Source: Vicinamibacterales bacterium (GTDB lineage Bacteria; Acidobacteriota; Vicinamibacteria; Vicinamibacterales; 2-12-FULL-66-21). From it: a DNA stretch of 43,866 nt. The stretch covers positions 1-43,866 of the forward strand of contig DASTBU010000136.1 of the NCBI GenBank assembly GCA_035711845.1, given 5' to 3'. Both the position numbers and the translations under genes were made by a program. Position 1 is the stretch's first letter, and each line of letters begins with the position of its first letter. Below, one piece after another: positions 5,369-43,866 of the stretch. The notes under the pieces were generated by a model. It saw only the letters and a program-made list of their open reading frames with translations. It was not told the origin of the DNA and did no database searches.

Positions 5369-5536
5369 CGTAATTCGTAGTTCGTGCTCCGTGGTTCGTA
5401 GTCCGTGGTCCGTAGTCTGTGAGACGTCGCTGGCACGTCGCACGAGCACACGTCGCACGTCGCACGTGACAAGCAGCACATCGCACATCACACGTAGCAC
5501 GTCGCACGTGACAAGTGGCAAGTGGCATGTGGCACC
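5369..5536. repeat. 24 consecutive phase-locked heptads (CGTNGTN x7, then TCGCACG/TGACAAG-like x~16)
   Basis: Hand-phased from 5369. Every 7-mer boundary is preserved across 168 bp. Lies between the upp stop and the citryl-CoA-lyase-like start. Confidence 0.9.
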
Positions 5537-6414: not shown

Positions 6415-6475
6415 CCGCCTCGCTGCGTTGCGGTGGTTGGAGGGCTGAGATAAACTGAGGTTCCGCACACGAGGT

Positions 6476-6550: not shown

Positions 6551-6717
6551 AACCACAAACCCTAGTTCACCAGGGGCTTACCAGCAGCAGGCGCGTCGCC
6601 GTTGCACGCAGGGGGATGCTGAGTCGCCGGCTCGGTTGCAACGGGTTTGCAACGGCGGGCGGGGTTCGTCCCGAACCGACGCATGCTCTCCTCCAAGCCG
6701 ACCAGCGTGGCGTTGAG

Positions 6718-6900: not shown

Positions 6901-7215
6901 GCGATCAGCGTGCCGTCCGGATGTCCCGGCGCGGCCGTCCCGTCAGCGAGCGCCCGTTGCGGCTGGCGCTGGTTGTCGAGGAACGAAGTCTTGCCGCCAA
7001 GCTGCCGTGGTCACGGCTTCGGCGCGAATGGAACGAGAGCCACAGACATGGACGTACGCCAGCGATCGGGCCTTCGCGAGCGATGCGCGGGCGGCTGTGA
7101 GCCGCGTGCCTCGCTACCGCTGAAGGGTTGTTCGTCGGGGCAATACGATCACGGAGGCTCTCTCGTCGGACATATCCTGAACAAGCCGGCGCGCGACTCT
7201 CAAGCGCGCAGGCGC

Positions 7216-15714: not shown

Positions 15715-15836
15715 CGCAGTGGAAGTACAGAAGCGCCCCGGCGAGGGACGACAATCGGTGATCGTACCATAGGTTCCACCGGAGCCAGTCGTCCGGCAGG
15801 CGGGTGAATGTGACCCGAGGAAGGACCAACCCCTCC

Positions 15837-16880: not shown

Positions 16881-16893
16881 GGGATTCCTCCGG

Positions 16894-19608: not shown

Positions 19609-19743
19609 CGTACCCTGAACGCGGGACAGACGGGCGATCGACGCCGCCGGGGTCCGGAACGCCTCCCGATTCGTCATATAATCAGCGTTTGCCCATGGAC
19701 ACCCTGCGGCCCGCGGGAGCCGGCCACCGGAGGCTCGGCTGAC

Positions 19744-21174: not shown

Positions 21175-21255
21175 GGATCCCGGCGGTGCCCGGACCGCGC
21201 GCGCGGATACGATGAACCAGCGGGGCCGTCTCGAACGGGCCGGGACCCCCAGGAT

Positions 21256-22416
21256 TCAGCCGAGCGCCTGATCCAGATCCGCGATCAGATCCTCAGGGTC
21301 TTCCAACCCGATCGACAGGCGCGCCATGCTCGTCGTGACCCCTGCCCGCGCGAGCTGCTCCTCGGAGTGCCCCCACTGCGAGGTCAGCACGGGCAGGCTG
21401 CAGAGGCTCTCCACGCCGCCGAGGCTTGCCGCGCGCGTGAACACGCGCAGCCGATCGAAGAACCGCGCGGCCCCTTCGTAGCCACCGCCGACGTCGACAC
21501 ACACCATGCCGCCGAAGCCACGCATCTGCTTCGACGCGACGGCGTAGTCGGGGTGCGACTCCAGCCCCGGATAGTAGACGGTGCGTACCCGGGCGTCGCG
21601 CTCGAGCCAGCGCGCGACCGCCATCGCGTTCCTGTTGTGACGGTCCATACGGACCGCCAGCGTCTTCAGGCCGCGGCCGAGCGCATAGGCAGCATACGGG
21701 TCCAGCACGGCGCCTGCCAGCTTGCGGACCTTCAGCATCCGTTCGATGAGGCGTGCCGGTCCGGCCAGCACGCCGGCCGTCACGTCACTATGGCCATTGA
21801 GGTATTTGGTCGCGCTGTGCATCACGAGGTCGATCCCCAGCGCAACCGGCTGCTGGTTCAACGGGCTGGCAAACGTGTTGTCGATCACCGAGACGACGCC
21901 GCGCGCGCGGCAGGCAGCTGCCACACGGGCAATGTCGATGCAGCGCAAGGTTGGGTTGATCGGGGACTCGAACCACACCACTTTCGTCCCGTCCGAGATC
22001 AGGGCCTCCGGGCGTGCCAGCTCGTCGAGCGACGCGAACCGCGACCGCACGCCGAAGGCCGACAACAGGTCGACGATGAGGTGCAACGTCCCGCCGTAGA
22101 TCGCAGAACTGCAGACGATCTCGTCACCGGAGCCGACGAGCGCCAGCAGCGCCGTCGTCGTCGCCGCCTGACCGCTCGAGAGCACCAGGGCCGCCTCGGC
22201 GCCCTCGAGCGCGGCCAGCTTCGTTTCCACTTCGACGACGGTCGGATTGGCGTAGCGCGTGTACAGGAACTTTGCCGAGCGGCCTTCGTTGTAGGCCAGT
22301 ACCTCGGCCGCGCTTTCGAACACGAACGTCGTCGTTTCGTAGATCGGGGTGGTCAGCGGCGCGGCGTCGTCGGCGACACCCGCCACGCGATGAATGAGCT
22401 CTGTTGCTGCACGCAT
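21256..22416 (-). CDS. PLP-dependent trans-sulfuration enzyme (cystathionine gamma-synthase/beta-lyase/Met gamma-lyase family)
   Basis: PLP-Lys region DLVMHSATKYLNGHSDV and an N-terminal PIYETTTF motif. The ATG at 22414-22416 is immediately followed by the repeat array. Confidence 0.85.
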   Translation of the reverse strand: MRAATELIHRVAGVADDAAPLTTPIYETTTFVFESAAEVLAYNEGRSAKFLYTRYANPTVVEVETKLAALEGAEAALVLSSGQAATTTALLALVGSGDEIVCSSAIYGGTLHLIVDLLSAFGVRSRFASLDELARPEALISDGTKVVWFESPINPTLRCIDIARVAAACRARGVVSVIDNTFASPLNQQPVALGIDLVMHSATKYLNGHSDVTAGVLAGPARLIERMLKVRKLAGAVLDPYAAYALGRGLKTLAVRMDRHNRNAMAVARWLERDARVRTVYYPGLESHPDYAVASKQMRGFGGMVCVDVGGGYEGAARFFDRLRVFTRAASLGGVESLCSLPVLTSQWGHSEEQLARAGVTTSMARLSIGLEDPEDLIADLDQALG

Positions 22417-22420
22417 ATTT

Positions 22421-22797
22421 GTCCCTGGTCGCTCAGTCCCTGGTCGCTGGTCCCTTGGTCCTCGGTCCCTGGTCGCTGGTCGCTGGTCCCTTGGTCCTGG
22501 GTCCCTGGTCTCGGGTACCTTGGTCCTCGGTCGCTCATCCCGTGTCCTTTGGTCCTCAGTCTTGGGACCGACCCTGGTCGGAATACTAACGCATCCCCGG
22601 AGGTCGACCGAGTCCAAGCCAAGAGAGGACGCACGGTAAGGGAGGAGGCAAGGGACTCAGGACGAAGGGACCCAGGACGAAGGGACCAACGACTGAGGGA
22701 CCGACCAGGGACCGAGGGACCCGGGACCGAGGGACCCGGGACTGAGGGACCCGGGACTGAGGGACCCGGGACTAAGGGACCAAGGGACCAAGGGACT
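22421..22797. repeat. Composite inverted tandem-repeat element (GGTCCCT/GGTCGCT units on the left arm, GGGACCGAGGGACCC units on the right arm, ~100-bp unique centre)
   Basis: Direct reading: the left arm is the reverse complement of the right-arm unit. The patatin-like gene's stop codon lies in the right arm, and the metB-like ATG abuts the left arm. Confidence 0.9.
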
Positions 22798-24199
22798 GCT
22801 CGCTCTCCCCCACGACCGGCTCGATGAAGAGGCGGTAGGCATCTTCGTATCCGCGATCGACCAGCTCGGCGAGCGTGTGGGCGCGGTCCGAACGCTCGTC
22901 GTAGACGCCGGCGAAATCGAGCGGACCCAACGGATTGTGCAGGGGACGAATGACGTACAGCCCGGCAAAACGGCCGGCCGTGTGCTCCACGACGTCGCGG
23001 AGTGCGGCGGCCTCGAAGCTCCCGAGCGATTCTGCTGCGCGGCCGCGGATGTCGGCGCGTCCGGCGCTCAGCTCGTGCGGCCCGCCGGGCGGCGGCACTG
23101 GTGCGACGATGATGATCTGCTCGACGCCGGCGGCGGCCACTTCTTCCAGCAACCGGAGAAGGCCGCCGGGCCGATCGCACAGGCGGTGTGTTTCGCCCCG
23201 CCAGGGACCTTCGGGCGCAAAGGTCACCAGGTGCGGATCGCACGCGACGGGCACGGCGAGCGCCGCCGTGAGCGCATCCAGCGCATGCTCGCGAGCCACG
23301 CCGCTGAGATCGAAGGCTTCGAGCTGGCGGACTCCTCCCACCGGCCCGGCTCGCGTCGGGAACCGGTTCCGGTGGCTTCCGGAAAGAAGGGCAAAGACCA
23401 GGTCACGTCGCGCGTCCAGATCGTGAACCGTGATCAGCAGCTCCCTGAAGCCGGGCTGTCCAAGGTTCTCCGACAGCAGCTCCAGATACTTGCGCGCCAG
23501 ATCTGGCGAGGACGGCGCGGCGAGCGGAGCCGCGCCCCGAATCAAGTTCCAGAGCTCCGACGAACTTCGCTCGACGAGCGAGGAGGCGGAGAAGGGCCCG
23601 CCGAAAATCCGACCCACGAGCCCATGCTGCGCCCGGCGCTTCGAGGTCCGGCCCGTCAGCGCCGGCAACGCGCCGGCGACAGCGGCGGCGGCCGACAGGA
23701 GCACGGCGAGCAGCGCCAGCCGTGGGATGATCGTCGGGAGCACAGCCGGGGCGAAGAGCACCTCCATCCAGCGGCTGTATCCCGCGCTCACCTGTGAGCC
23801 GATCCCTCCGAGGCCGATCAGCGTCAGGAGGAGCCCCGCCATGGCGGCCAGCACCGAGAGGGCGAGCAGGGCAAGAGGCACCGCAAGGACGGCCAGCCCA
23901 GCGACGAGCGCCCAGGCGGCGACCCGCAGCGAGCGGCGCCACCCGTAGAACCGAGCGGCGGAGGCGCTGCGCCAGATCCCGGTCTCTTCCCACAGCCGGG
24001 CGCTTCCATCGATCGCCGCGTACATCGCCGCGATGACCCCCACGCCGCGGGCCGCCACGAGGTCGATGCGAATACCCGCCTCGTGCAGCGCGCGCAGCAC
24101 GCCCGCATGGTAGGCGCCGCCCGTGCCGGAGCCGGTGAGCACGAGCGCCGTGCGCAGCCGGGTGGAGTACTGGCGGTCGGGTGAATCGGGTGTGATCAC
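22772..24199 (-). CDS. Patatin-like phospholipase-family protein, apparently catalytically degenerate, with a central TM segment
   Basis: The patatin block LVLTGSGTGGAYHAGVLRAL...IDLVAARGVGVIAAMYA aligns to GGGxRG...GxSxG, but the Ser and Arg positions are replaced. GTG start. Confidence 0.65.
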   Translation of the reverse strand: MITPDSPDRQYSTRLRTALVLTGSGTGGAYHAGVLRALHEAGIRIDLVAARGVGVIAAMYAAIDGSARLWEETGIWRSASAARFYGWRRSLRVAAWALVAGLAVLAVPLALLALSVLAAMAGLLLTLIGLGGIGSQVSAGYSRWMEVLFAPAVLPTIIPRLALLAVLLSAAAAVAGALPALTGRTSKRRAQHGLVGRIFGGPFSASSLVERSSSELWNLIRGAAPLAAPSSPDLARKYLELLSENLGQPGFRELLITVHDLDARRDLVFALLSGSHRNRFPTRAGPVGGVRQLEAFDLSGVAREHALDALTAALAVPVACDPHLVTFAPEGPWRGETHRLCDRPGGLLRLLEEVAAAGVEQIIIVAPVPPPGGPHELSAGRADIRGRAAESLGSFEAAALRDVVEHTAGRFAGLYVIRPLHNPLGPLDFAGVYDERSDRAHTLAELVDRGYEDAYRLFIEPVVGESEQSLGPLVP

Positions 24200-24209
24200 A
24201 CCGTGCGCG

Positions 24210-24674
24210 TCACTCGTCGTGAATGGTGAGCAGCTTGACGACCTCGAATCGCCGGCTGCCGTTCGGCGTGGTCACGGTCACCTCGTCGCCTTCCTCCTTG
24301 TTGAGCAGCGCCCGGCCAATCGGGGAGGCGGTCGAGATCAGCCCGTGCTCGACGTCGGCGTCTTCGGGCATGACCAGCTGATAGACGATCTCCTGGCCAT
24401 TCGGATCCTTGAGATGAACGGTCGAGCCGAATCCCACGCGATCCTTCGGAAGCTTGTCGAGGTTCATCAGAGAGATTTCGCTGACGCGTTTCTTGAGAAG
24501 GCTGATCCTCGATTCCACGAGCCGCTGCCGTTCCTTGGCAGCGTGATACTCCGCGTTTTCCCGCAGGTCGCCAAGCTCCCGTGCGCGCTTGATCTCCTTC
24601 GGCAGCTCCATCTTGAGCTCCCGTTCGAGCTGCTGGATCTCGCCCTCGAACTTCTTCAGAATCTGCGCCTTCAT
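24210..24674 (-). CDS. greA: Transcription elongation factor GreA
   Basis: 154 aa, MKAQILKKFEGEIQQLERELK...GDLRENAEYHAAKE... Confidence 0.9.
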   Translation of the reverse strand: MKAQILKKFEGEIQQLERELKMELPKEIKRARELGDLRENAEYHAAKERQRLVESRISLLKKRVSEISLMNLDKLPKDRVGFGSTVHLKDPNGQEIVYQLVMPEDADVEHGLISTASPIGRALLNKEEGDEVTVTTPNGSRRFEVVKLLTIHDE

Positions 24675-24681
24675 CGGGACG

Positions 24682-25542
24682 ATGGTAGCACGATCGCATG
24701 CGACGAAACGCCGGGCCGGAGGCCTCCCGCACGCGGCGTACAATACGACGGTGGAACGCATTTCGAGCCGGCAGAACGCGGTCGTGAAACGTTTTCGCGC
24801 GTTGATCCGCGCAGGCTCGATCGACGATGAGGTGCTCCTCGACGGTGTGCACCTGCTCGAGGAGGCGCTCTCGGCCGGCATGCGGATCGAGGTCGCGGCA
24901 TTCGCGGAGCCGCTGATCTCTGGCCCGCTCGCCGCGCTGGCGGCGCGAACCGAGGCCGTCCACGCCAGGACCATCGCCGTGCCGCAAGAGGTGCTCACCA
25001 CCATCGGCCCGGTGCGGCACCCGTCCGGCGTCGTCGCGATCGCGCAGCTTCGCCGCCGAGCACTCGACGAGGCGCTCGCCGGTGAGCGGCCGCTCGTCGT
25101 GATCCTCCACCAGGTCCAGGACCCTGGCAACGTGGGCGCAGTCGTCCGCGCCGCCGAAGCGTGCGGCGCAACCGGCGTCGTCACGACGAGCGGGACCGCC
25201 GATCCGTATGGGTGGAAGTCGCTCCGCGGCGCGATGGGCAGCGCGTTCAGACTGCCTATCGCGACAGGGATATCACCCGGTCGGCTCGGCACTGCGCTCG
25301 ACGCTCGGGGTATTTCCCTCATGGCCGCCGTGCCGCGGGACGGCACGCCATTGCCGGAAGCCGATCTCACCGGCCCGGCAGCGATCCTGCTGGGCGGCGA
25401 AGGCGCCGGCCTGCCGCCCGAGGTCGTGGCCGATGCCCACGCGCGCCTCACGATTCCGATGAAGGCGCCCGTCGAGTCGCTGAACGTCGCCATCGCCGCA
25501 TCCCTTATCCTGTACGAAGCCGCGCGACAGCGCTGCAACTGA
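24682..25542 (+). CDS. TrmH/SpoU-family RNA 2'-O-methyltransferase
   Basis: SpoU substrate-binding and methylase motifs (VVILHQVQDPGNVGAVVRAAEA, LLGGEGAGL, ESLNVAIAASLILYE). The start is uncertain: ATG 24682 lies only 7 bp from the divergent greA start, and GTG 24751 is an alternative. Confidence 0.75.
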   Translation: MVARSHATKRRAGGLPHAAYNTTVERISSRQNAVVKRFRALIRAGSIDDEVLLDGVHLLEEALSAGMRIEVAAFAEPLISGPLAALAARTEAVHARTIAVPQEVLTTIGPVRHPSGVVAIAQLRRRALDEALAGERPLVVILHQVQDPGNVGAVVRAAEACGATGVVTTSGTADPYGWKSLRGAMGSAFRLPIATGISPGRLGTALDARGISLMAAVPRDGTPLPEADLTGPAAILLGGEGAGLPPEVVADAHARLTIPMKAPVESLNVAIAASLILYEAARQRCN

Positions 25543-25549
25543 AGGCCAC

Positions 25550-26875
25550 ATGTCTCTTTTCGACGACCCGGAACCGGAAGCAACCATCCCCGCCACATCC
25601 CCGCTGGCCGAACGCATGCGGCCGCGCACGCTCGACGAATTCGTGGGACAGGATGCGCTGCTCGCTCCCGGACGGCCGTTGCGCCAGGCGATCGAGCAGG
25701 ACCGCCTGCAGTCGCTGATTCTCTGGGGTCCTCCAGGAACCGGCAAGACAACGCTCGCCCGTCTCGTCGCCAGGGTCACCCGCGCCCAGTTCACCTCGTT
25801 CAGCGCGGTGCTCTCGGGCATCAAGGAGATCCGGACCGTGATGGCCGAAGCGGAGGAGGCGCGGCGTCGGCGCGGACGGAGGACCCTGCTCTTCGTGGAC
25901 GAGATCCACCGCTTCAACAAGGCGCAACAGGACGCGTTCCTGCCGCGTGTCGAGGCGGGCGACATCGTGCTGATCGGCGCGACCACGGAGAACCCGTCCT
26001 TCGAGGTGAACTCCGCGCTGTTGTCGCGGTCCAAGGTGTACGTGCTTCAGCCACTCGGTCCGGAGGCGATCGTGACCATCCTGCGCCGGGCCCTCTCGGA
26101 CGCCGAGCGGGGACTCGGAGCGATGAACCTCGGCGTCGAGGAAGAAGCGCTCGCGGCCATCGCGCGCTATGCCAACGGGGACGCTCGCGTTGCGCTGAAC
26201 CTCATCGAGATGGCGTCGGGGGCGGCCGCGGGCTCCGGGCGGATCGACGCGGCGATGATTGCGGACCTGGCGCAGAACCGGGCGCTGCTGTACGACAAGT
26301 CCGGCGAGGAACACTACAACCTGATCTCGGCGCTGCACAAATCCATGCGTAACAGCGATCCGGACGCCTCCGTGTACTGGCTGGCTCGCATGCTCGAAGC
26401 CGGCGAGGACCCGCTCTATGTCGCCAGGCGCCTGGTGAGGTTCGCCTCGGAAGACGTCGGGAACGCCGACCCCCAGGCGCTGGCGATCGCGGTCGCGGCC
26501 AAGGACGCCGTTCACTTCATCGGCATGCCCGAAGGCAATACCGCACTGGCCCAGGCCGTCATCTACCTGGCGACCACACCGAAGAGCAACGCGGTGTACA
26601 CCGCGTACCTGCAGGCAGCGGAGGCGGCCGCCAGCGAGATTGCCGAACCCGTGCCGCTGCACCTGCGGAATGCCCCTACGCGCCTGATGAAACAGCTCGA
26701 ATACGGAAAGGGGTACAAGTACGCCCACGACGAACCGGAGGGTATAGCGGAAATGGAATGCCTGCCCCCTGCGCACCGCGGGCGGAAGTTCTACCGGCCC
26801 ACGAACCGGGGCCGCGAGGCAGCGGTCAGAAAGTGGATGGAGGAGAAAGTTAGAAGGCTGAAGGCTGAAGGCTGA
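25550..26875 (+). CDS. rarA: Replication-associated recombination protein A (AAA+ ATPase)
   Basis: Walker A GPPGTGKTT, Walker B LLFVDEIHRFNK, and the MgsA C-terminal domain. The last residues (LKAEG) are encoded by the GAAGGCT array. Confidence 0.9.
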   Translation: MSLFDDPEPEATIPATSPLAERMRPRTLDEFVGQDALLAPGRPLRQAIEQDRLQSLILWGPPGTGKTTLARLVARVTRAQFTSFSAVLSGIKEIRTVMAEAEEARRRRGRRTLLFVDEIHRFNKAQQDAFLPRVEAGDIVLIGATTENPSFEVNSALLSRSKVYVLQPLGPEAIVTILRRALSDAERGLGAMNLGVEEEALAAIARYANGDARVALNLIEMASGAAAGSGRIDAAMIADLAQNRALLYDKSGEEHYNLISALHKSMRNSDPDASVYWLARMLEAGEDPLYVARRLVRFASEDVGNADPQALAIAVAAKDAVHFIGMPEGNTALAQAVIYLATTPKSNAVYTAYLQAAEAAASEIAEPVPLHLRNAPTRLMKQLEYGKGYKYAHDEPEGIAEMECLPPAHRGRKFYRPTNRGREAAVRKWMEEKVRRLKAEG

Positions 26876-26929
26876 AGGCTGAAGGAACTTCAGCGTTCCA
26901 CCTTCAGCCTTCCACCTCAGCTTTGAAGG
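26853..26929. repeat. (GAAGGCT)x4.5 tandem array followed by its inverted complement (multi-hairpin) between convergent rarA and protease genes
   Basis: GAAGGCTGAAGGCTGAAGGCTGAAGGCTGAAGG, then AACTTCAGCGTTCCACCTTCAGCCTTCCACCTCAGC. Both gene stop codons lie inside it. Confidence 0.85.
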
Positions 26930-27792
26930 TGTGCGACCTTCCGGAACATCTCGGTGCGGATGGGCAGGATGAACGAGAACCTGTAATCGCCCTGCATACG
27001 CCCGATCGGGATGCCAACCAGTTCTCCGTCGCGGTTGAGCACGCCTCCGCCGGACACACCCGGGTGCCCGTCCGTGAGGCAGGTGACCAGCTTGTTGGCG
27101 GTCTTCTGCCCCACATAGCCGGTCGAGACGATGATGCCCTTCGAATAATCGTTGCCGAGCCGGAAGATCGGGTCCGCGAAGTCGAACCCGTACGCCAGGT
27201 TGGGTCTCAATGCCGGCAGATCCACCGGCTGCTTCACCTTGATGATGGCCCAGTCGCCCGGATCGACCTCGACTTCGGCATCCCCGGAATCCACCACGCG
27301 CGCGGGAATCAGCTTCCCGTCGTACATCAGCTTGACCGAGACGATGCGGCGCGGATCCGACAGACCTTCCTGGCCGAGCGCGACAACGCCGTGTTTCACG
27401 GTGATGAAGTATCCGTTGCCAAGGTAGCCCGCCGTGCCGTAGCTGCTCGAGCCGCGGTCGTCGTACGAATACAGCTCGACGAAGCTGGAGCGGCTGTCGC
27501 GGAGGAGATCCAGCGGGAGAAGCCCCATCTCGTCCTGCAGCTGCCGCTTGACGTCGGCCACGATCGCCGCGCGGTTGGCTTCGTCCATGGAGTCTGCGGC
27601 CGCCTTGCGGCCGTTGCCCGATGTCCCGGCCGCCTCGGCCAGTGGGCGTTTGAGTTGCGCAATCTCGGCGCGCAGGGCGGCAAGCTGCTCGTCGCTATCG
27701 TTCTGGCGAGCGCCCAGGTAGTTGCCCAGTCCAAAGAAGAGCAGGGCAAAGGCGGAAGCGATGATCGCTGGTAGCGTACGACGCGTGGACAT
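26917..27792 (-). CDS. Membrane-anchored trypsin-like (S1) serine protease
   Basis: N-terminal TM helix, coiled-coil, and a C-terminal chymotrypsin fold with DGHPGVSGGGV around the catalytic Ser. Confidence 0.75.
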   Translation of the reverse strand: MSTRRTLPAIIASAFALLFFGLGNYLGARQNDSDEQLAALRAEIAQLKRPLAEAAGTSGNGRKAAADSMDEANRAAIVADVKRQLQDEMGLLPLDLLRDSRSSFVELYSYDDRGSSSYGTAGYLGNGYFITVKHGVVALGQEGLSDPRRIVSVKLMYDGKLIPARVVDSGDAEVEVDPGDWAIIKVKQPVDLPALRPNLAYGFDFADPIFRLGNDYSKGIIVSTGYVGQKTANKLVTCLTDGHPGVSGGGVLNRDGELVGIPIGRMQGDYRFSFILPIRTEMFRKVAHLQS

Positions 27793-28024
27793 AGCAACTC
27801 CAAGTTCGGCAGCTAAACCACCCCGCACCAACGGGGCTTACAGCTTTGCGCACTTCCTGAACGGACGTGGCCTTTTCGCTTGGAAAAAAGTTCAGAGCCG
27901 AGTTGCTGGGATAAAAAACTGTAACGGGAATGCGGGTGACTGTCAAGAGTAAATCTTGCGCAGTCAGTCGGTTATGGCTCAGGTGCACACACCGGCACGC
28001 CGATGCATCGCTCCTCACCGGACG

Positions 28025-29638
28025 TCATTCCCGCCGGGTTCCGCCCTCCCGAGGCGGCTTGACGATCGGCGGTGAGGGCGCCGGCGAGTCCGCCGGCGGC
28101 GGCGCTGCAGCACTCGTGCCGCGAACGCCCAGCTGCTCCAGGACGCTGGGGACGTTCAGGCCGAGCGCCTCCATCTGCTGCAACAGGCTGAACACGACGG
28201 CCGGGCTGGTCTTCGCAATCCGGCCGAGGCCGCCGCTGCCGCCATCGGCGTTGCCGTTGCCTTGATCGATGACAACCAGCTTGTCGATGTTGCCGAGCGG
28301 CGACGCTATGGCCCCGAAGATGCCCGTCGACGCCTCGAGGATCGCCGGCATCTTCTCGAGGATGGTCTGGAGCCGCGCCGCGTCGTTGAACTCCTTCCAC
28401 GCCTCGGCCTTTCGGAGAATGGCGGTGGCTTCCGCGACACCCTGGGCCTCGATCGCCTTGGCCTGCGCCAGTCCGATGGCCTCGATCTTCGCCGCCTCGG
28501 CCCGGCCTTCGGCCTCGACCGCGGCCGCACGACCGACGCCCTCCTTCCGCAGCTTCTCCTGCTCCGCTTCTGCCAGCGCAATCAACGCCGCGCGCCGGCC
28601 CTCCGCTTCGAGAATGGCCGACTGCTTGGCCGCTTCGGCGCGCACGACCGCGGCAAGACGATCAGCTTCGGCCGGCTTGATCACCGTCGCCTCGAGCTCC
28701 TTCTGCTTGCGAAGGACCTCCTGTTCCTGAACGGAGATCAATTCCTGCGTGCGCGTCCGCTCGACCCTGACTTCTTCGGCAACTACCGCCTGGCGCGCGG
28801 TGGCCTCCGACAGCGGGCCGGCCTGCTCCGCGCGGGCTTTCTGAGTCTCGACCTCCGCCTGATACTGCGCCTGGCGGATCATGAAGTCGCGCTGTGCCTG
28901 GGCGATCTCGGCATCCGCGATGAACTTGGCCTGTTCGCCCTGCTGCAGCGCCTGCGCGGACTTGATCTTCGCGTCCCGATGCGCTTCGGCTTCGCCGATG
29001 GTCGCATCCCGCTTGACCTCCGCCGTGCGACGCTTCCCGAGCGCGTTGAGATACTCCTCCTCGTCGCTGATCTCCTGAATCGTCAGGACGTCCACGCCGA
29101 TGCCCATCTTCTCGAGATCGACGGTGGCTTCGCTCGTCAACTTCTGAGCGAAGCTCTGACGATCGCTGTTGACCTCCTCGACGGTCAGCGTGCCGAGGAT
29201 CGATCGCAGGTGCCCTTCGAGCGTCTGGAAGATGACCTTCTGCACTTCCACGTGTGTCATCCCGAGAAACCGTTCGGCGGCCGCCTGAAGCGATGTCTCG
29301 TCGCCGCGGATCTTCACGTTGGCGACAGCCTTCACCGATACCGGGACGCCCTTCAACGTGTACGCCCGACGGATCTCCAGCGGGATCGTCATGACGTTCA
29401 GATGCAGGTACTCGACCTTCTCCAGGAGCGGGATGCGCAGCGCGGCGCCGCCCCTGACCATCCGGTAGCCGACGACGCGGCCGTCAGGCAGCTTGCGCCG
29501 GCGTCCGCTCAGGACGGCGACCGCATTCGGTGAGACCTTCAGATAGTTCCGGCTGATCAGCCAGAAGCCGGCGAAAAAGGCGAGCACGACCGCCAGGATC
29601 AGCGGAGCGATCCAGATATTGGTATCCAGGGAGAGCAT
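28025..29638 (-). CDS. Flotillin-family SPFH/band-7 protein (YqiK-like)
   Basis: N-terminal TM helix, SPFH domain, and a long Ala/Glu-rich coiled-coil (EAEGRRAALIALAEAEQEKLRKEG...). Confidence 0.85.
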   Translation of the reverse strand: MLSLDTNIWIAPLILAVVLAFFAGFWLISRNYLKVSPNAVAVLSGRRRKLPDGRVVGYRMVRGGAALRIPLLEKVEYLHLNVMTIPLEIRRAYTLKGVPVSVKAVANVKIRGDETSLQAAAERFLGMTHVEVQKVIFQTLEGHLRSILGTLTVEEVNSDRQSFAQKLTSEATVDLEKMGIGVDVLTIQEISDEEEYLNALGKRRTAEVKRDATIGEAEAHRDAKIKSAQALQQGEQAKFIADAEIAQAQRDFMIRQAQYQAEVETQKARAEQAGPLSEATARQAVVAEEVRVERTRTQELISVQEQEVLRKQKELEATVIKPAEADRLAAVVRAEAAKQSAILEAEGRRAALIALAEAEQEKLRKEGVGRAAAVEAEGRAEAAKIEAIGLAQAKAIEAQGVAEATAILRKAEAWKEFNDAARLQTILEKMPAILEASTGIFGAIASPLGNIDKLVVIDQGNGNADGGSGGLGRIAKTSPAVVFSLLQQMEALGLNVPSVLEQLGVRGTSAAAPPPADSPAPSPPIVKPPREGGTRRE

Positions 29639-29652
29639 AGGGGACCTCGCCT

Positions 29653-30192
29653 TCAGTTCTTCCGAACGATCACGACTTCGCCGAGGACCTCCTCAATCTT
29701 CACGAGCGCGTTTTCCGGAATCGTGCCGTTGTCGCCTGCGCGGGCGACTTTGTCGATCAGTTCTTCGCCCAGGCGGCATCGGATCTGTCCCACGCCGCCT
29801 GAGGGAATCGTCACGACGACCCGCGCCGACTGGCCGACGAGATCGCTCGATCGCAATTCGGACGATGCCTGCTGGCCGTAGAGGAATCGTGCGAAGACGT
29901 AAACGGCGCCGCCAAAGACGAGCCCGCCGGCAAACCCGATCGCCGAAGCCGGAAGCGGGCTCAAGCCGTAGTGTGTCGCGATCGCCCCGAAACCGCCGAA
30001 CGCCGTAATGAAGACACCCATGACCCGGCTGCTGAAAAAGCCGGGCCCGCCATGGTCCAGATCGTGGTCGAGCGCCGCATCGAAATGTTCGAAAACCTCG
30101 CCGAAGAGCAGCGAGATCATCATGAACACGAAGCCGATGCCGGCGATCGCGAGAAAGACAGCGAATGCGTTGCTCGACGAGAAGAAGTCCAT
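29653..30192 (-). CDS. NfeD-like membrane protein (YqiJ-type partner of flotillin)
   Basis: Gly-rich TM region plus a C-terminal OB-fold (VGQSARVVVTIPSGGVGQIRCRLGEELID). The stop lies 15 bp upstream of the flotillin start. Confidence 0.75.
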   Translation of the reverse strand: MDFFSSSNAFAVFLAIAGIGFVFMMISLLFGEVFEHFDAALDHDLDHGGPGFFSSRVMGVFITAFGGFGAIATHYGLSPLPASAIGFAGGLVFGGAVYVFARFLYGQQASSELRSSDLVGQSARVVVTIPSGGVGQIRCRLGEELIDKVARAGDNGTIPENALVKIEEVLGEVVIVRKN

Positions 30193-30301
30193 TGGGGCGG
30201 AGCGAGCCCACTCTAGGAGGAACGCGCATCCAAGTCAACTCGGCAACGACCCGGGACCGGGGGCGCCGAGCGTCGGCATCAGGCCAGGGCCGCGGCGCCG
30301 C

Positions 30302-32113
30302 TCAGATACGCTGGAAGTTTTTTTCGATCTCGCGGCGGGACATCCGCAGCACCACGGGACGGCCGTGCGGGCAGACGCTCGAGTAGGCGGTGCGGCGCAA
30401 CTCCTGGAGGATGTAGCGCATCTTGTCGAGCGTCAACGGGTAGTTGGCTTTCACGGCCGCATGGCACGCCATGGTCGCCGCGATCCGGCGCAGCGGCTCC
30501 TCGACGCGCGTGCCCCGGTCGAGACCTTCGAGATCGTCGCCTAGCGCCCGAACCACGACTTCGCACTCGGCAGGGTCCAGCAGCGCCGGAACGGCCGAGA
30601 GTCGCAGGCTGCCGCCGCCGAACTCCTCGATCTCGATCCCGAACCGGTCCAGGGTGCCAGCATGGATCGTCAGGGCCTCGCGCTGGGCGGGCGACAACTC
30701 GATGAGAATTGGGCTCAGGAGCCGCTGTCCTTCGAGGCGTCCGGAGGTCAGCTTCTCCATGACCTGCTCGAACAGCACCCGCTCGTGCGCCACGTGCTGA
30801 TCGATCACCGCAATCCCCTCGTCGTCCACGGCAATGATGTACGTGTCGCGGAATTGCCCCAGCGGGATCATCGGCCGGATGTCCTCCGGCGTAATCCCGC
30901 CGGCCAGCGCGGCTCCGGCCGCCGACGCCACGTGGGCCAGCGGCGATACGTCGAGGTCGTGGGCGGAGGGGCCCGCCAGCGATCGCCAGACCGCGTCATG
31001 CTCCAGGGTCCAGCGGCTGCCAACGGTCGCGCCGGAGAGCACGCCGGGGATGCTGCGCGGGCTCGGCTCGTCGGGCCGCGCCGCAAATGGCGTGAACTGC
31101 AGCTCCGGCGCGCGCCCCTGACCGAGGGCCTCGGCCATCGCGCGTCTCAGGACCTCGTGCACGAGCGACTGCTCCAGGAAGCGGACTTCAGCCTTCGTCG
31201 GATGGACGTTGACGTCGACCCGATCCGGCGGGATCTCGACGAAGAGATGGACCTCCGGGCTGCGTTCCTTGATGGTTGCGACGCTGTAGGCTTCGGAGAT
31301 GGCGTGGGCGATCGTGCGATCCTTCACGATGCGGCGGTTCACGAACACGTTCTGCGCCCCGCGGACCGGCCCCTGGTCGCCGAGCGCGGCCACGTAGCCG
31401 TGGATCTTCAGCCCGCCGGCCTCCTTTTGAACCTCGACGAGCTCCGCCCGCTCGCCGAAGAGCTGAAAGAAGCGCTCGCGCAGCCCGGCAGCCGGCGGGC
31501 ACGCCAGCAGCGTGCGGCCCGGGCCCGTGGAGGCGCTGCCGCTCGTCAGCGTGAACCCCACCTCGGGGTAGCCGAGCGCCATCTGCGTCACGAGCCGGGA
31601 GATCTGCGTGGTCTCCGCGGTGTCCGACTTCAGAAACTTCCGCCGCGCCGGCAGATTGTAGAAGAGATCGGCGACCTCGAGGCACGTGCCTTCGGGAACG
31701 CCCACGTCACGCTCGGAGGCGATCGTGCCGCCGTTGACGCGGATTTCGGTGCCGGCCGCACTTCCGCGCGCGCGCGTGCGCAGCGTGAAGTGCGAGACCG
31801 ATGCGATGCTCGGCAACGCCTCGCCGCGGAAGCCGAGGGTGCGGATGGCTGCGAGATCCTCGGCGCTCGCAATCTTGCTCGTCGCGTGGCGCTCGACAGC
31901 CAGCCGTGCGTCTTCCGCCTCCATGCCGTCCCCGTCGTCCTCCACGCGGATCAGCTTCTTCCCGCCGAGCTCCACCGCGATCGCGATCCGCCGGGCGTGA
32001 GCGTCGAGCGCATTTTCGACCAGCTCCTTCACGACCGACGCCGGACGTTCGACGACCTCGCCGGCGGCGATCTGGTTGGCGAGGTGGAGTGGCAGGCGAT
32101 GGATACGGGACAT
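30302..32113 (-). CDS. mutL: DNA mismatch repair protein MutL
   Basis: GHKL ATPase N-terminus MSRIHRLPLHLANQIAAGEVVERPASVVKELVENALDA and the C-terminal dimerisation domain. Confidence 0.95.
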   Translation of the reverse strand: MSRIHRLPLHLANQIAAGEVVERPASVVKELVENALDAHARRIAIAVELGGKKLIRVEDDGDGMEAEDARLAVERHATSKIASAEDLAAIRTLGFRGEALPSIASVSHFTLRTRARGSAAGTEIRVNGGTIASERDVGVPEGTCLEVADLFYNLPARRKFLKSDTAETTQISRLVTQMALGYPEVGFTLTSGSASTGPGRTLLACPPAAGLRERFFQLFGERAELVEVQKEAGGLKIHGYVAALGDQGPVRGAQNVFVNRRIVKDRTIAHAISEAYSVATIKERSPEVHLFVEIPPDRVDVNVHPTKAEVRFLEQSLVHEVLRRAMAEALGQGRAPELQFTPFAARPDEPSPRSIPGVLSGATVGSRWTLEHDAVWRSLAGPSAHDLDVSPLAHVASAAGAALAGGITPEDIRPMIPLGQFRDTYIIAVDDEGIAVIDQHVAHERVLFEQVMEKLTSGRLEGQRLLSPILIELSPAQREALTIHAGTLDRFGIEIEEFGGGSLRLSAVPALLDPAECEVVVRALGDDLEGLDRGTRVEEPLRRIAATMACHAAVKANYPLTLDKMRYILQELRRTAYSSVCPHGRPVVLRMSRREIEKNFQRI

Positions 32114-32121
32114 GAAGGCGT

Positions 32122-32261
32122 CAGTTACCAGTTTCCAGTTTCCAGTTCCCAGTTTCCAGTTTCCAGTTTCCAGTTCTCAGTTTCCAGTTCCCAGTTTCCA
32201 GTTCGCCCCCTCAGCTGCCAGCTCCACTAACCGGCAACTGGGAACTGGAAACTGAGAACTG
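32122..32261. repeat. 12 tandem CAGTTTC/CAGTTCC heptads, 30-bp centre, then inverted (AACTGGG AACTGGA AACTGAG) units
   Basis: Hand-phased. Occupies the whole corA-stop to mutL-start gap and begins 8 bp from the mutL ATG. Confidence 0.9.
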
Positions 32262-39111: not shown

Positions 39112-39864
39112 TTATCGGGCCTGGCGCATTTCACGGAGGACCCGGGCTGATTTGAGCTCCTTTTCGAGGTGCAGGCTGATCAACCGCCGGTGCGCGGTTT
39201 CGAGCTCCTGCGACGCGCCGGAGGTCAGCGGCATGCGGCCGAGCTGCTCGGGCCCCAGCCGCCCGGCGGCCAGCAGGAACCCCACGGCTTCGGGCGACAG
39301 CCTGCTGCCGCTGGTGCCAGGCGCACACGAGCCGCAGACGAACACGTGCTCGCGCGGTGGCATCACGACCCCGGCGCGGCGGTCGAACAACGTGCCGCAG
39401 GCACTGCACGCCAGACCGGGATAGACGCCCTGCAGCCGGAGCAGCCAGTACTCGAAGTAGCGCGCCAGGGGTTCGACCGCTCCCCCGGCAGCAACCGCGC
39501 CGAGCATCGAGGCGCCGAGCCTGAACAACCGTTCGTCGGCGTGCGCTTCGGGCGCCCACTCGTCGATCAACTCGGCGAAATATCCCACGTGTCCGAGCGC
39601 CTCTGCCGTGGCCGCCGACAGCGGCGACTGTACGGGCTCGACGTAGTTCAACCGCACGAGATCACGCTGCTCGCGCTCGTAATAGGCGACGCCCGCGCGC
39701 GTCATGGGCTCGAGCGCGCCGATGTACCTCGACCGCGGCCTCCGCGCCCCCTTGGCAACACCCCGCTTCTTCCCCCGATCCCGGGTCAGAAAGACGACTA
39801 TCCGATCGGCTTCACCCAGCTTGTATGTGCGGAGAATCAGCGCGTCGGCGGTGTAGACGGGCAT
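39112..39864 (-). CDS. recO: DNA repair protein RecO
   Basis: [34 protein letters not shown]-fold and a Cys4 zinc motif (CSACG...CGSC). The ATG at 39862-39864 abuts the TGAATGC array. Confidence 0.85.
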
Positions 39865-39871
39865 GGGAGTG

Positions 39872-40075
39872 CTGAGTTCTGAATGCTGAATGCTGAATGC
39901 TGAATGCTGAATGCCAAAAATGCCAACTGCTGCCGAATCGCTCGCCCTTTGCTGAACGTCATTACACCCCACATTCAGCACTCAGCATTCAACATTCAGC
40001 ATTCCCTTGAATCGCTTGCCTCCTGCTGAACGTCATCCCAATTCAGCATTCAGCATTCGACATTCAGCATTCATT
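39872..40075. repeat. (TGAATGC)x5 - spacer - inverted (ATTCAGC)x4 - duplicated spacer - inverted x4
   Basis: Direct reading. The 30-bp spacer GAATCGCT(C/T)GCC..TGCTGAACGTCAT occurs twice. Fills the whole mgtE-stop to recO-start gap. Confidence 0.9.
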
Positions 40076-42632: not shown

Positions 42633-43547
42633 TCATCCCCGTCTGGCCGTTCCTCGGGCAGTTTTCGGGACGTTGAGGTCGTCGAGGACGCGTTCGTTGT
42701 TCCGCCAGTCGGGGTTCACCTTGACGCGAAGATCGAGGAACACCCGCGTCTCGAAGAACTGCTCGAGGTCGCGCCGGGCCTCGGTGCCGATCGTCTTGAT
42801 CATCTCACCGCGTCGCCCGATGACAATGGCCTTCTGGGACTCCTGCTCGACGAAGATCGTGCAGTACAGCCGCAGGATACTGTCCCGCTCGCTCTCGTCG
42901 AACTGATCGACGATGACCGCGGTCGAGAACGGAAGCTCGGCCCGGGTATGCTGCAGCACCTTCTCGCGGACCATCTCGGCGACGATGGCGCGTTCCGGCT
43001 GATCGGTGAGGAAATCCGCCGGATAGATGGGATCGCCCTCGGGCAGCTGCGCGAGCAGCGCCTGCTCCAGTTGCTCGATGCCGTCGCCGGTCACCGCCGA
43101 CACGGGAACGATCGCGGCAAACGAGTGCCACCGCTGCGCCTGCTCGATGAGCGGGAGCAGCCTGGGCTTGGCGATCAGGTCGATCTTGTTGAGCACGAGG
43201 ATCACTGGCGCCTTGACACCGGCGAGCAGCCTCGACACGTACTCATCGCCGCGCCCCGGCTTGCTCGACGCGTCGAAAACCAGGACCACGACATCGACCT
43301 CCCGCAGGGTCTCGACCGCCGCGTCAACCATCCGCACGTTCAGCCGGTGCAGCGGACGGTGAATGCCGGGCGTATCGACGAACACAATCTGGCTGTCGCC
43401 AATGTTCTTGACGGCCAGAATCCGCGTCCGCGTGGTCTGCGGCTTGTCGGAGACGATGGCGACCTTGGTGCCAACGATGCGATTGAGAAGCGTGGACTTG
43501 CCCGCATTTGGCCGGCCCACCAGTGATGCGAATCCGCAACGCGACAT
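42633..43547 (-). CDS. era: GTPase Era
   Basis: G1 GRPNAGKST, G3 DTPG, G4 NKID, and a C-terminal KH domain. Confidence 0.9.
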   Translation of the reverse strand: MSRCGFASLVGRPNAGKSTLLNRIVGTKVAIVSDKPQTTRTRILAVKNIGDSQIVFVDTPGIHRPLHRLNVRMVDAAVETLREVDVVVLVFDASSKPGRGDEYVSRLLAGVKAPVILVLNKIDLIAKPRLLPLIEQAQRWHSFAAIVPVSAVTGDGIEQLEQALLAQLPEGDPIYPADFLTDQPERAIVAEMVREKVLQHTRAELPFSTAVIVDQFDESERDSILRLYCTIFVEQESQKAIVIGRRGEMIKTIGTEARRDLEQFFETRVFLDLRVKVNPDWRNNERVLDDLNVPKTARGTARRG

Positions 43548-43552
43548 CGATC

Positions 43553-43866
43553 GGTCCCTCGTCCCTCGATCCCATGGTCCCTGGTCCCTCGGTCCCTCGG
43601 TCCTGGGTCCCTGGTCCGGGTCCCGGGGTCCCTGGTCCGGGTCCGGGGTCCCTGGTCCGGGTCCCGGGTCCCTGGTCCGGTCGCGGGGTCCCTGGTCCGG
43701 TCGCGGGGTCCCTGGTCCCTCGGTCCTTCAATCTCGGGTCCCTCACGAACGGGGTGCGACTCGAGACCGGGGACTCAGGAGCAGCGACCCCGGACCGAGG
43801 GACCCCGGACCGAGGGACCCCGGACCGAGGGACCCCGGACCGAGGGACCCCAGACCGAGGGACCCC
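43553..43866. repeat. Second copy of the GGTCCCT / CCGGACCGAGGGACC composite inverted repeat family (runs off the window end)
   Basis: Left arm GGTCCCTGGTCCGGGTCCCGG repeats; centre containing GGGGACTCAGGAGCAGCGACC; right arm (CCGGACCGAGGGACC)x5. Same unit and same GGGACTCAGGA centre motif as the 22.4-kb locus. Confidence 0.9.

What the first reader, a model, noticed from the sequence alone, without database searches (positions are those of the whole stretch)
43553..43866. Second GGTCCCT-family element immediately upstream of era, truncated by the window edge
This locus has the same architecture and unit as the 22.4-kb locus. Its left arm again starts 6 bp from a minus-strand ATG (era), giving era a leader of GAGGGACGAGGGACC. 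The right arm carries five near-perfect 15-mers (CCGGACCGAGGGACC). The centre shares GGGACTCAGGA with the first copy. This is the strongest evidence for a dispersed, evolving repeat family rather than independent slippage.
Basis: seen in the sequence. Interest (0 to 1): 0.55.

Follow-up and report, generated by a model that had tools for sequence, protein, structure and literature searches.

The report
Hypervariable inverted heptamer-repeat spacer before era
The DNA just upstream of the era gene in this soil acidobacterium is a fast-changing pair of mirror-image 7-base tandem repeats that makes up the whole gap between two operon genes; it is a new example of a known but functionally unexplained class of bacterial repeats, not a mobile element.

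Summary
Window 43553-43866 holds a GGTCCCT-type array starting 5 nt from the era ATG, a unique centre, and 5.4 copies of a reverse-complement 15-mer cut by the window end.

Two metagenome contigs of the same species span the element. It begins at the last base of the stop codon of a CorC/CNNM gene and ends 5 nt before the era ATG. It is therefore the entire corC-era spacer of a phoH-ybeY-corC-era gene string. The spacer is 364 nt in one population and 750 nt in another, with era DNA 98.4-100% identical.

The 22.4-kb locus shares only the unit and a 15-nt double unit. It shares no centre and no flanks. Four other spacers in the window carry period-7 arrays with unrelated units, three of them with the same two-arm build.

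Relatives carry other heptamers, or none, in the same corC-era spacer. One species shows 49/56/63-nt alleles.

This is an intergenic heptanucleotide simple-sequence repeat, a known kind, built by slippage. It is predicted to fold end to end into one long RNA hairpin. A role in tuning era expression, as in the Haemophilus hmw leader, is inferred only.

The parts
42633..43547 (-). era (GTPase Era, 304 aa), the gene immediately downstream of the element
   Evidence: Translation. Pfam MMR_HSR1/KH_2 on the identical protein. N-terminus MSRCGFASLVGRPNAGKS matches homologues.
43548..43552 (-). 5-nt linker (CGAUC on the mRNA) between the last repeat unit and the era AUG
43553..43726 (-). era-proximal arm. 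It reads AGGGACC-type on the sense strand and GGTCCCT-type on the + strand. The outer ~60 nt are degenerate and conserved between populations. The inner part is a 20/21-nt super-unit (GGACCAGGGACCCCGSGACC), with 5 copies here and 3, 4 or 13 copies elsewhere.
   Evidence: TRF. Population comparison.
43727..43785 (-). Unique centre (hairpin apex). It is nearly the same in all populations of this species and unrelated to the centre of the 22.4-kb locus.
   Evidence: Apex of the predicted fold.
43786..43866 (-). era-distal arm. It reads GGGGUCCCUCGGUCC 15-mers on the sense strand. 5.4 copies are seen before the window ends. In full-length contigs it continues to the stop codon of the upstream CorC/CNNM gene.
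   Evidence: TRF. L154 and L155. L156-L158.
22421..22797 (-). Second locus with the same unit. The arms are 22421-22561 and 22650-22797 and the unrelated centre is 22562-22649. It fills the spacer between a patatin-like gene (stop at 22772-22774, inside the arm) and a Cys/Met PLP enzyme (ATG at 22416).
32122..32261 (-). Same two-arm build with a different unit (CAGTTTC / GAAACTG). It fills the CorA-MutL spacer.
39867..40073 (-). Same build with a different unit (GAATGCT / CATTCAG). It fills the MgtE-RecO spacer.
26853..26921 (.). Short inverted heptamer pair (GAAGGCT x4.7 and its complement) between the convergent MgsA/RarA and trypsin-like peptidase genes.
5376..5534 (+). Two adjacent period-7 arrays (CGTAGTC-type and GCACGTC-type), not clearly complementary, between upp and a citrate-synthase-like gene.

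Best explanation
**Shown**
- The element is a pair of inverted, heptamer-based tandem arrays.
- Together with a ~59-nt unique centre, it forms the complete spacer between a CorC/CNNM gene and era.
- The gene string is phoH-ybeY-corC-era in a Vicinamibacterales (Acidobacteriota) bacterium.
- Its length changes in whole repeat units between populations. This is the behaviour of a slippage-driven simple-sequence repeat.

**Inferred about origin**
- It arose and grows in place rather than by insertion.
- The perfect inner super-units (15 nt in one arm, 20/21 nt in the other) expand and contract.
- The degenerate outer units next to the two genes stay fixed.

**Inferred about mechanism**
- The spacer is transcribed with the operon.
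- It folds end to end into one long imperfect hairpin. The bases right after the corC stop pair with the bases right before the era AUG.
- The era ribosome-binding region is therefore masked. It would be opened only by ribosomes finishing corC (translational coupling), or exposed or separated by RNase III cutting the stem.
- Repeat-number changes would then tune Era output relative to YbeY and CorC. This is how the heptamer repeat hairpin in the Haemophilus influenzae hmw1A leader works.
For: **Anatomy**
- L154 and L155 span corC to era. The array starts at the G of the corC TAG and ends 5 nt before the era ATG. The spacers are 364 and 750 nt.
- phoH, ybeY and corC overlap each other upstream.

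**Repeat-number variation**
- The distance from centre to ATG is 151, 171, 188 or 352 nt. This equals 3, 4, 5 or 13 super-units.
- era DNA is 98.4-100% identical across these contigs.
- A related species has 49/56/63-nt (CTTCTAN)n alleles with an identical CorC.

**Birth in place**
- The corC-era spacer is short and repeat-free in the closest genome (L006, 20 nt).
- Other lineages carry other heptamers there: L015 CCCTGAT/ATCAGGG, L013 AGCTGAA, L073 ATCAGCT/AGCTGAT, L061 and L062.
- Possible seeds exist in L008 (TCCCGGTCCCGGTCCCGG after the stop) and L007.
- The MgtE-RecO array starts at the conserved AATG after the stop.

**Period-7 excess**
- There are 35 arrays of period 7 against 5, 16, 2, 7, 0 and 0 for periods 5, 6, 8, 9, 10 and 11 in 918 kb.

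**Hairpin prediction**
- The end-to-end folds give -278 kcal/mol (z -9.0) for L154 and -611 kcal/mol (z -13.1) for L155.
- The window fragment gives z -5.5.
- The stop-proximal and start-proximal 38/36-nt segments pair far better than shuffles in L154 (z -5.2) and L155 (z -3.9). The same holds with a different unit in L015 (z -4.3) and without repeats in L012 (z -3.9).

**Precedent**
- In the hmw1A (ATCTTTC)n 5'-UTR, a long hairpin is cut by RNase III and expression depends on repeat number (PMC12721329).
Against: - No transcript, cleavage or expression data exist for this organism.
- The element is absent from the closest relatives, so it is dispensable for era.
- A related species has a single-armed, unstructured array in the same spacer. 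Stop/start bridging is not significant in L007, L008, L013, L016 or L148/L153. A hairpin is therefore not a conserved requirement.
- At the CorA-MutL locus the start-proximal arm is three times longer than its partner, which leaves the mutL start unpaired.
- The two arms have different super-units (15 against 20/21 nt), so pairing is imperfect.
- High GC and repeat content make very negative folding energies easy to obtain.
- Copy numbers in short-read assemblies, especially the 750-nt allele, may be inaccurate.
- The studies read here found no function for comparable heptamer repeats (PMC4692102).
Confidence: 0.4

Rival explanations
1. Selectively neutral by-product. The arrays are only slippage-prone heptamer microsatellites. 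They accumulate wherever a non-coding gap tolerates them and have no effect on era. The inverted arms reflect how they were seeded, for example from the two halves of an older small hairpin or by template switching, and not selection.
For: - The arrays are absent in the closest relatives.
- Different units occupy the same spacer in different lineages, and a single-armed version exists.
- Length polymorphism is extreme.
- Arms are unbalanced at several loci.
- Heptamers are the most over-represented long simple-sequence repeats in many prokaryotes. This has been attributed to polymerase slippage (PMC4679880; PMC4692102).
Against: - The arrays consistently run from stop codon to within 0-8 nt of the next start codon. 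They therefore replace the ribosome-binding region of essential genes (era, recO, mutL) without apparent harm.
- Both arms are longer in the longer alleles: 184/151, ~243/171 and 369/352 nt (n=3).
- None of the six loci lies in a divergent (promoter-only) spacer.
Confidence: 0.3
2. This is a dispersed repeat family in the sense of a mobile or copied element (MITE/REP-like), with copies landing upstream of era and at 22.4 kb.
For: - The two loci share the unit and a similar 15-nt double unit.
- 62 metagenome contigs carry the double unit at unrelated places.
- Many arrays have similar outer ends, GGTCCCTGGTCCCT... and ...AGGGACCAGGGACC.
Against: - There is no shared centre.
- There are no shared flanks, no target-site duplication, and no conserved non-repeat sequence.
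- Four other loci in the window carry period-7 arrays with unrelated units, three of them in the same two-arm build.
- There is evidence for seeds in place and unit-step polymorphism.
- The double unit is absent from all 80 genome era loci.
Confidence: 0.1
3. A G-quadruplex/i-motif element. The AGGGACC arm (G3 tract every 7-8 nt) forms a G-quadruplex in DNA or mRNA next to the era start, as shown in vitro for the GGGAATC repeats of Xanthomonas and the GGGGAYT repeats of Nostoc.
For: - G3 tracts recur with 3-5-nt loops in parts of both GGTCCCT loci.
- The unit differs from the Nostoc unit GGGGACT at one or two of seven positions.
- Those repeats also lie close to ORF ends, occur as inverted pairs, vary in length and avoid divergent spacers (PMC4692102).
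Against: - The other heptamer units in this window (CAGTTTC, GAATGCT, GAAGGCT, CGTAGTC) have no G tracts yet show the same placement.
- A fully complementary C-rich arm sits in cis and competes with quadruplex folding.
- In the era-proximal super-unit some G3 tracts are 10 nt apart.
Confidence: 0.08
4. An array of binding sites for a protein that recognises about 7 nt of single-stranded RNA or of DNA. Candidates are ribosomal protein S1, cold-shock proteins, CsrA (GGA motif) or a DNA-binding regulator, as proposed for the TAACTGA repeats of Beggiatoaceae.
For: - The arrays end within a few nt of start codons where no canonical Shine-Dalgarno sequence is visible. This parallels PMC4679880.
- Every AGGGACC unit holds a GGA.
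Against: - Several unrelated units occur in one genome, so no single sequence-specific factor can serve them all.
- Most of the array is predicted to be double-stranded.
- No candidate protein was tested.
Confidence: 0.07
5. An assembly artefact at a contig end.
For: The window ends inside the array. All short contigs break there.
Against: The same ordered sequence (conserved outer units, centre, inner super-units) was assembled independently from at least eight samples. Two contigs span it.
Confidence: 0.02

Closest known systems
Intergenic heptanucleotide long simple-sequence repeats of prokaryotes (Mrazek et al. 2007, as summarised in PMC4679880 and PMC4692102)
   Same: Tandem 7-nt units far longer than chance. 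They are intergenic, variable in length between close relatives, and period 7 dominates over neighbouring periods.
   Different: I found no description of them for Acidobacteriota in the searchable literature. The local density here is very high: six loci, about 1.27 kb or ~3% of 43.9 kb. Most are paired inverted arrays that occupy a whole spacer.
G-rich heptamer repeats GGGAATC (Xanthomonas) and GGGGA(C/T)T (Nostoc, includes STRR-type units) (PMC4692102)
   Same: One G3-4 tract per 7-nt unit. They lie close to ORF starts and ends, sometimes as inverted pairs able to form stem-loops. They show extensive length and sequence variation between relatives and are rare between divergent genes. Their function is unknown.
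   Different: Different unit (GGGACCN) and phylum. The arrays are much longer (up to ~370 nt per arm, against a preferred four units). Higher-order 15- and 20/21-nt super-units are present. Quadruplex formation was not tested here. The same genome uses non-G-rich units in the same way.
Haemophilus influenzae hmw1A/hmw2A (ATCTTTC)n 5'-UTR repeat hairpin (PMC12721329)
   Same: A heptamer repeat lies in the leader of a gene. It is predicted to form one arm of a long hairpin reaching the translation start region. Copy number varies in populations.
   Different: There the partner arm is a non-repeat G-rich segment and the gene is a phase-variable adhesin. Here both arms are repeat arrays and the gene is a housekeeping GTPase inside an operon. 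RNase III cleavage, transcription and any expression effect are untested here.
TAACTGA direct repeats of marine Beggiatoaceae, some Cyanobacteria and Bacteroidetes (PMC4679880)
   Same: Heptamer arrays end within a few nucleotides of start codons, in leaders without a canonical ribosome-binding site, upstream of housekeeping genes of no common function.
   Different: Those are almost all direct (169 direct sets, one indirect) and short (2-6 copies), with one dominant unit per genome. Here the pairs are inverted, run to tens of copies, and use several units.
REP/BIME and MITE-type dispersed palindromic elements
   Same: Extragenic, dispersed and able to form hairpins between genes.
   Different: Those have a conserved 20-40-nt or longer consensus and defined ends. 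Here the only thing shared between loci is a 7-nt unit.

Membership tests
Heptanucleotide long simple-sequence repeat (LSSR) | Head-to-tail tandem copies of a 5-11-nt unit, here 7 nt, longer than expected by chance | tested here: met
   TRF finds period 7 with 24.7 copies. GGTCCCT occurs 34 times against 5.8 expected.
Heptanucleotide long simple-sequence repeat (LSSR) | Located outside coding sequence | tested here: met
   The array lies between the corC stop and the era ATG. The other five loci are also intergenic.
Heptanucleotide long simple-sequence repeat (LSSR) | Copy number varies between close relatives or populations (slippage behaviour) | tested here: met
   3, 4, 5 or 13 super-units with era 98.4-100% identical. 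49/56/63-nt alleles in a related species. Caveat: these are short-read assemblies.
G-quadruplex-forming heptamer repeats (GGGAATC / GGGGAYT type) | At least four G3+ tracts separated by short loops | tested here: inconclusive
   This is met in parts, for example AGGGACCCGGGACTGAGGGACCCGGGAC at 22715-22790. In the era-proximal super-unit the loops are 4 and 10 nt.
G-quadruplex-forming heptamer repeats (GGGAATC / GGGGAYT type) | K+-dependent quadruplex formation of the repeat oligonucleotide | not testable with these tools
   This needs CD spectroscopy or melting experiments.
hmw-type repeat hairpin leader (H. influenzae) | The heptamer repeat forms an arm of a long hairpin in the leader RNA | tested here: met
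   In silico only. End-to-end hairpin with z -9.0 (L154) and -13.1 (L155).
hmw-type repeat hairpin leader (H. influenzae) | [quoted passage not shown] | not testable with these tools
   Inferred from the co-directional, overlapping phoH-ybeY-corC genes and the absence of a promoter-like site.
hmw-type repeat hairpin leader (H. influenzae) | RNase III cleaves the hairpin and expression depends on repeat number | not testable with these tools
   No data are available.
REP/MITE-like dispersed element | A conserved non-repeat consensus or conserved ends shared between copies | tested here: not met
   Only unit-level matches were found. The centres are unrelated, with score 14 against a shuffle mean of 14.8.
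Intrinsic (Rho-independent) terminator | A short GC-rich hairpin followed by a U run | tested here: not met
   No terminator-like site in L154 2600-3200.
Any curated RNA family (Rfam 15) | A match at the gathering score | tested here: not met
   Only tRNA-Val at 6477-6551 was found in the whole window.
CRISPR array | Repeats of 24-48 nt separated by unique spacers | tested here: not met
   The units are 7-8 nt and directly abut one another.

The most novel reading that the evidence does not exclude
In Vicinamibacterales and related Acidobacteriota, paired inverted heptamer arrays could be a general, self-expanding kind of intercistronic 'loop-out' spacer.

- The two arms zip together from the stop codon of one gene to the start codon of the next.
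- Hundreds of nucleotides can then be gained or lost without separating the two codons in space.
- Coupling, or RNase III processing, would be kept while repeat number acts as a heritable tuning knob for housekeeping genes (era, recO, mutL).
- The same spacer has been re-colonised by different units in different lineages. This would point to a structure-level rather than sequence-level requirement.
Probability: 0.12. Interest if true: 0.65.

Novelty: new member of a known kind. Interest (0 to 1): 0.4.

Why it matters
- Heptamer repeats are the commonest long simple-sequence repeats in many bacteria, yet the studies read here could assign them no role.
- This locus offers a clean natural test case. 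The repeat pair forms the whole spacer in front of an essential ribosome-assembly GTPase. It has natural length alleles (364 and 750 nt). Sister lineages carry other units or none.
- If the hairpin controls Era output, repeat-number 'tuning knobs' would extend from pathogen surface genes to core housekeeping operons of abundant soil bacteria.
- On the practical side, these arrays break short-read assemblies. They also create spurious ORFs in acidobacterial metagenome bins.

Tried and rejected
1. **Rfam.** The gathering-threshold search over the whole window found nothing at any array.
2. **Promoter and terminator scan.** The scan of the full-length spacer found nothing.
3. **Search for the missing flank.** A tblastn search with a CorC protein found no hit among the 62 pattern-matched metagenome contigs. 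The flank was found through a protein-homologue search instead.
4. **First CorC candidate (P0021).** It belonged to another species, but it gave the 49/56/63-nt alleles.
5. **Look-up of the Cys/Met PLP protein.** This was meant to show polymorphism at the 22.4-kb locus. All 11 contigs stop 53 nt upstream of the ATG.
6. **Is a stop/start-bridging hairpin conserved in all corC-era spacers?** It is significant only in L012, L015, L154 and L155. It is not significant in L007, L008, L013, L016, L034 or L148/L153. I therefore do not claim conservation.
7. **A common motif across all units** (CTGA core, GGA, Shine-Dalgarno-like GAGG). None fits all units, so I rejected this.
8. **A sigma-54-like reading of TTGGCATTTTTGGCA** in the MgtE-RecO centre. 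The spacing is wrong, so I rejected it.
9. **CRISPR, terminator and coding-repeat readings.** I rejected all three (see the membership table).
10. **Literature searches for heptamer repeats in Acidobacteria.** They returned nothing.

Full report
**What is in the window**

- On the + strand, 43553-43726 is a run of GGTCCCT-type units (TRF period 7, 24.7 copies). It contains a 20-nt super-unit at 43599-43718 (5.9 copies, 93% matches).
- 43727-43785 is non-repetitive apart from one stray unit.
- 43786-43866 is 5.4 copies of a 15-mer (98% matches) of reverse-complement type. It runs into the window end.
- era is 42633-43547 on the minus strand. Five bases separate its ATG from the first unit. The mRNA leader ends ...GAGGGACGAGGGACCGAUCG-AUG.
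- GGTCCCT occurs 34 times in the window against 5.8 expected from shuffles. Thirty-one of the 34 hits are in this locus and at 22.4 kb.

**Source organism and the missing half**

- Era is at most 80% identical to proteins of uncultured Acidobacteriota/Vicinamibacterales genomes.
- Seven metagenome contigs encode the identical Era. All the short ones end 150-245 nt upstream of era, inside the array.
- In relatives the upstream gene is a co-directional CorC/CNNM 'hemolysin-like' gene.
- A homologue search with that protein followed by contig look-ups identified P0025 as this species' CorC. It comes from the same samples as the Era contigs, and five of its contigs end in the array.
- Two contigs, L154 and L155, span the gap. 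The array begins with the last base of the corC TAG and ends 5 nt before the era ATG.
- The element is therefore the complete corC-era spacer of a phoH-ybeY-corC-era string, and the three upstream genes overlap.
- The spacer is 364 nt in L154 and 750 nt in L155.
- From centre to ATG there are 151, 171, 188 or 352 nt in L154, L001/L002, the window and L155. This corresponds to 3, 4, 5 or 13 copies of the 20/21-nt super-unit.
- From the stop to the centre there are 184, about 243 and 369 nt (L154, L156, L155).
- era DNA is 98.4-100% identical among these contigs.
- The degenerate outer units next to both genes are the same in all populations. Only the perfect inner super-units vary. This is the behaviour of a slippage-prone tandem repeat.
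- Copy numbers from short-read assemblies carry some uncertainty.

**Is it a copy of the 22.4-kb element?**

- Exact-match analysis of 22416-22800 against 43548-43866 finds only unit-level matches. The longest is 18 nt. A 14-nt double unit, GGACCGAGGGACCC, is shared.
- The shared GGGACTCAGGA is the degenerate first unit of the distal arm in both loci.
- The true centres are unrelated, with local alignment score 14 against a shuffle mean of 14.8.
- The flanking genes differ: patatin-like and Cys/Met PLP enzyme at one locus, CorC and Era at the other.
- Sharing one heptamer among six loci is still unlikely by chance. My estimate is about 1%.
- The double-unit pattern GAGGGACCNNGGACNGAGGGACC occurs in 62 soil and peat metagenome contigs at unrelated places. 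These arrays are one- or two-armed and lie in either orientation relative to the next gene.
- The pattern is absent from all 80 genome era loci.
- GGTCCCT/AGGGACC is therefore a favoured unit in some acidobacterial lineages. This resembles GGGAATC in Xanthomonas or the STRR units in Nostoc. It is not an element with defined ends.

**The wider pattern in the window**

- TRF finds four more intergenic period-7 loci with other units: 5376-5534, 26853-26921, 32122-32261 and 39867-40073.
- Pfam assignment of the neighbouring genes gives these positions:
  - upp and a citrate-synthase-like gene;
  - MgsA and a peptidase (convergent);
  - CorA and MutL;
  - MgtE and RecO.
- Of the six loci, five lie between co-directional genes, one lies between convergent genes, and none lies between divergent genes.
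- Most run from within 0-3 nt of the upstream stop to within 2-8 nt of the downstream ATG. The exception is the upp locus, which starts about 14 nt after the stop and ends 20 nt before the ATG.
- Five of the six have two arms of opposite orientation.
- Across 918 kb (the window plus 80 era loci), arrays of at least four units number 35 for period 7. Periods 5, 6, 8, 9, 10 and 11 give 5, 16, 2, 7, 0 and 0.

**Evidence for birth and change in place**

- The corC-era spacer is 20 nt and repeat-free in the closest genome (L006).
- L008 has TCCCGGTCCCGGTCCCGG right after the stop, and L007 has CCCCGGACCCCG.
- L015 has 333 nt of CCCTGAT... / ...ATCAGGG arms that abut the stop and the start.
- L013 has AGCTGAA units. 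L073 has ATCAGCT/AGCTGAT arms. L061 and L062 carry further units.
- A species whose CorC is 86% identical to that of L006 has (CTTCTAN)n. Its spacers are 49, 56 or 63 nt in six samples with an identical CorC protein.
- The MgtE-RecO spacer is 4-33 nt in most relatives, with a conserved ...GGGGTAGAATG after the stop. L012 has (GATTGMT)x4.4 there. In the window, (GAATGCT)n begins exactly at that AATG.
- These facts fit repeated local origin and unit-step slippage. They do not fit insertion of a ready-made element.

**Predicted structure**

- As RNA of the sense strand, the full spacers fold into one long imperfect hairpin.
  - L154: -278 kcal/mol, z -9.0.
  - L155: -611 kcal/mol, z -13.1.
  - The truncated window copy: z -5.5.
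  - The other two-armed loci: z -6.6 to -9.4.
- The first units after the corC stop pair with the last units before the era AUG.
  - Duplex energy is -47.9 kcal/mol against -24.9 +/- 4.4 for shuffles in L154.
  - L155 (z -3.9) and L015 (z -4.3, unrelated unit) show similar significant bridging.
  - L012 also shows significant bridging without repeats.
- Bridging is not significant in L007, L008, L013, L016, L034 or the single-armed CTTCTAN species. It is therefore recurrent but not universal.
- The arms use different super-units, 15 against 20/21 nt, so they evolve separately and pair at about 72-85%.
- No Rfam family, promoter-like site or terminator-like site was found.

**How it most likely works**

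- Shown: the element is a hypervariable inverted heptamer-repeat spacer between corC and era.
- Inferred: it is co-transcribed with the operon and forms a hairpin that hides the era initiation region.
- Ribosomes terminating at corC would melt the base of the stem and free the era start (classical coupling). RNase III could also cut the stem.
- Either way, repeat number would set Era output relative to YbeY, its partner in 16S rRNA maturation. That partnership is established knowledge, not tested here.
- The closest worked example is the Haemophilus hmw1A leader. There a heptamer repeat forms one arm of a long hairpin cut by RNase III, and expression depends on copy number (PMC12721329).
- I put this functional reading at about 0.4. 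A purely neutral slippage by-product is at about 0.3. Smaller shares go to a quadruplex element, a protein-binding array and a mobile element.

**Comparison with what is known**

- Over-representation of heptamer repeats in prokaryotic intergenic DNA is established. It has been tentatively ascribed to polymerase slippage (Mrazek 2007, as cited in PMC4679880 and PMC4692102).
- The following were already described for the G-rich heptamers of Xanthomonas and Nostoc, for which no function was found:
  - inverted pairs;
  - proximity to ORF ends;
  - length variation between relatives;
  - scarcity between divergent genes.
- Arrays abutting start codons without a canonical ribosome-binding site were described for TAACTGA in Beggiatoaceae.
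- The present case adds a new unit and a new phylum. The arms are very long, with higher-order super-units. It also documents stop-to-start filling of an operon spacer.
- I found no paper on such repeats in Acidobacteria.
- I therefore file it as a new member of a known kind.

**Verdict**

- Function remains inferred.
- Interest is moderate.

Noticed in passing
window 6477-6551 (+): tRNA-Val (anticodon CAC). The 408-aa ORF 6475-7701 from the mechanical ORF list starts inside it and has no Pfam hit, so its 5' part at least is spurious.
   Followed up: partly
L015 6923-7437: A 23S_rRNA_IVP / four-helix-bundle gene (PF05635, E 4.6e-14) lies on the minus strand between inverted heptamer arrays. 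AATGCTG starts inside the era stop codon. CATTCAG lies ~70 nt before the recO ATG. This protein family is named for genes inside the intervening sequences of 23S rRNA.
   Followed up: partly
window 39867-39914 and L015 7397-7437: The same unit (CATTCAG on the sense strand) lies upstream of recO in two lineages whose Era proteins are only 66% identical and whose gene order differs. Closer relatives have a 4-33-nt spacer with no such array. I did not resolve whether this is shared ancestry, convergence from the conserved GAATG seed, or unit preference.
   Followed up: partly
window 22421-22470; L161-L168: All 11 contigs encoding the identical Cys/Met PLP enzyme end 53 nt upstream of its ATG, inside the 22.4-kb array. 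All short Era and CorC contigs end in the era array. Heptamer arrays are systematic assembly breakpoints in these metagenomes.
   Followed up: yes
L155 2606-3472; window 43324-43746: Gene callers and ORF lists produce spurious ORFs across the arrays. One example is a 288-aa 'gene' on the opposite strand in L155.
   Followed up: no
window 43553-43866 and 22421-22797: Every GGTCC/GGACC core is the palindrome GGWCC, and GGTCCCTGG also contains CCWGG. Both are classic methyltransferase/restriction sites. This may be coincidence.
   Followed up: no
window 39915-40040: The MgtE-RecO spacer contains a duplicated module: a GAATGCT array plus a ~30-nt non-repeat segment (GAUGACGUUCAGCAGGAGGCAAGCGAUUC / UAAUGACGUUCAGCAAAGGGCGAGCGAUUC). 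Segmental duplication therefore acts here as well as unit slippage. L001 differs from the window by a 9-nt indel in this region.
   Followed up: partly
L136 ~1310-1370: A GGTCCCT-type array falls within the region matched by RecO in tblastn (38.7% identity, 936-1478). It may be an in-frame insertion of repeat units in a coding sequence.
   Followed up: no
window 13705-32113: The window is rich in DNA-repair genes: uvrB (13705-15942), a DHH/RecJ-like gene (ending at 21174), mgsA/rarA (25550-26875), mutL (30302-32113) and recO (39112-39864). Three of them directly adjoin heptamer arrays. No causal link was tested.
   Followed up: no
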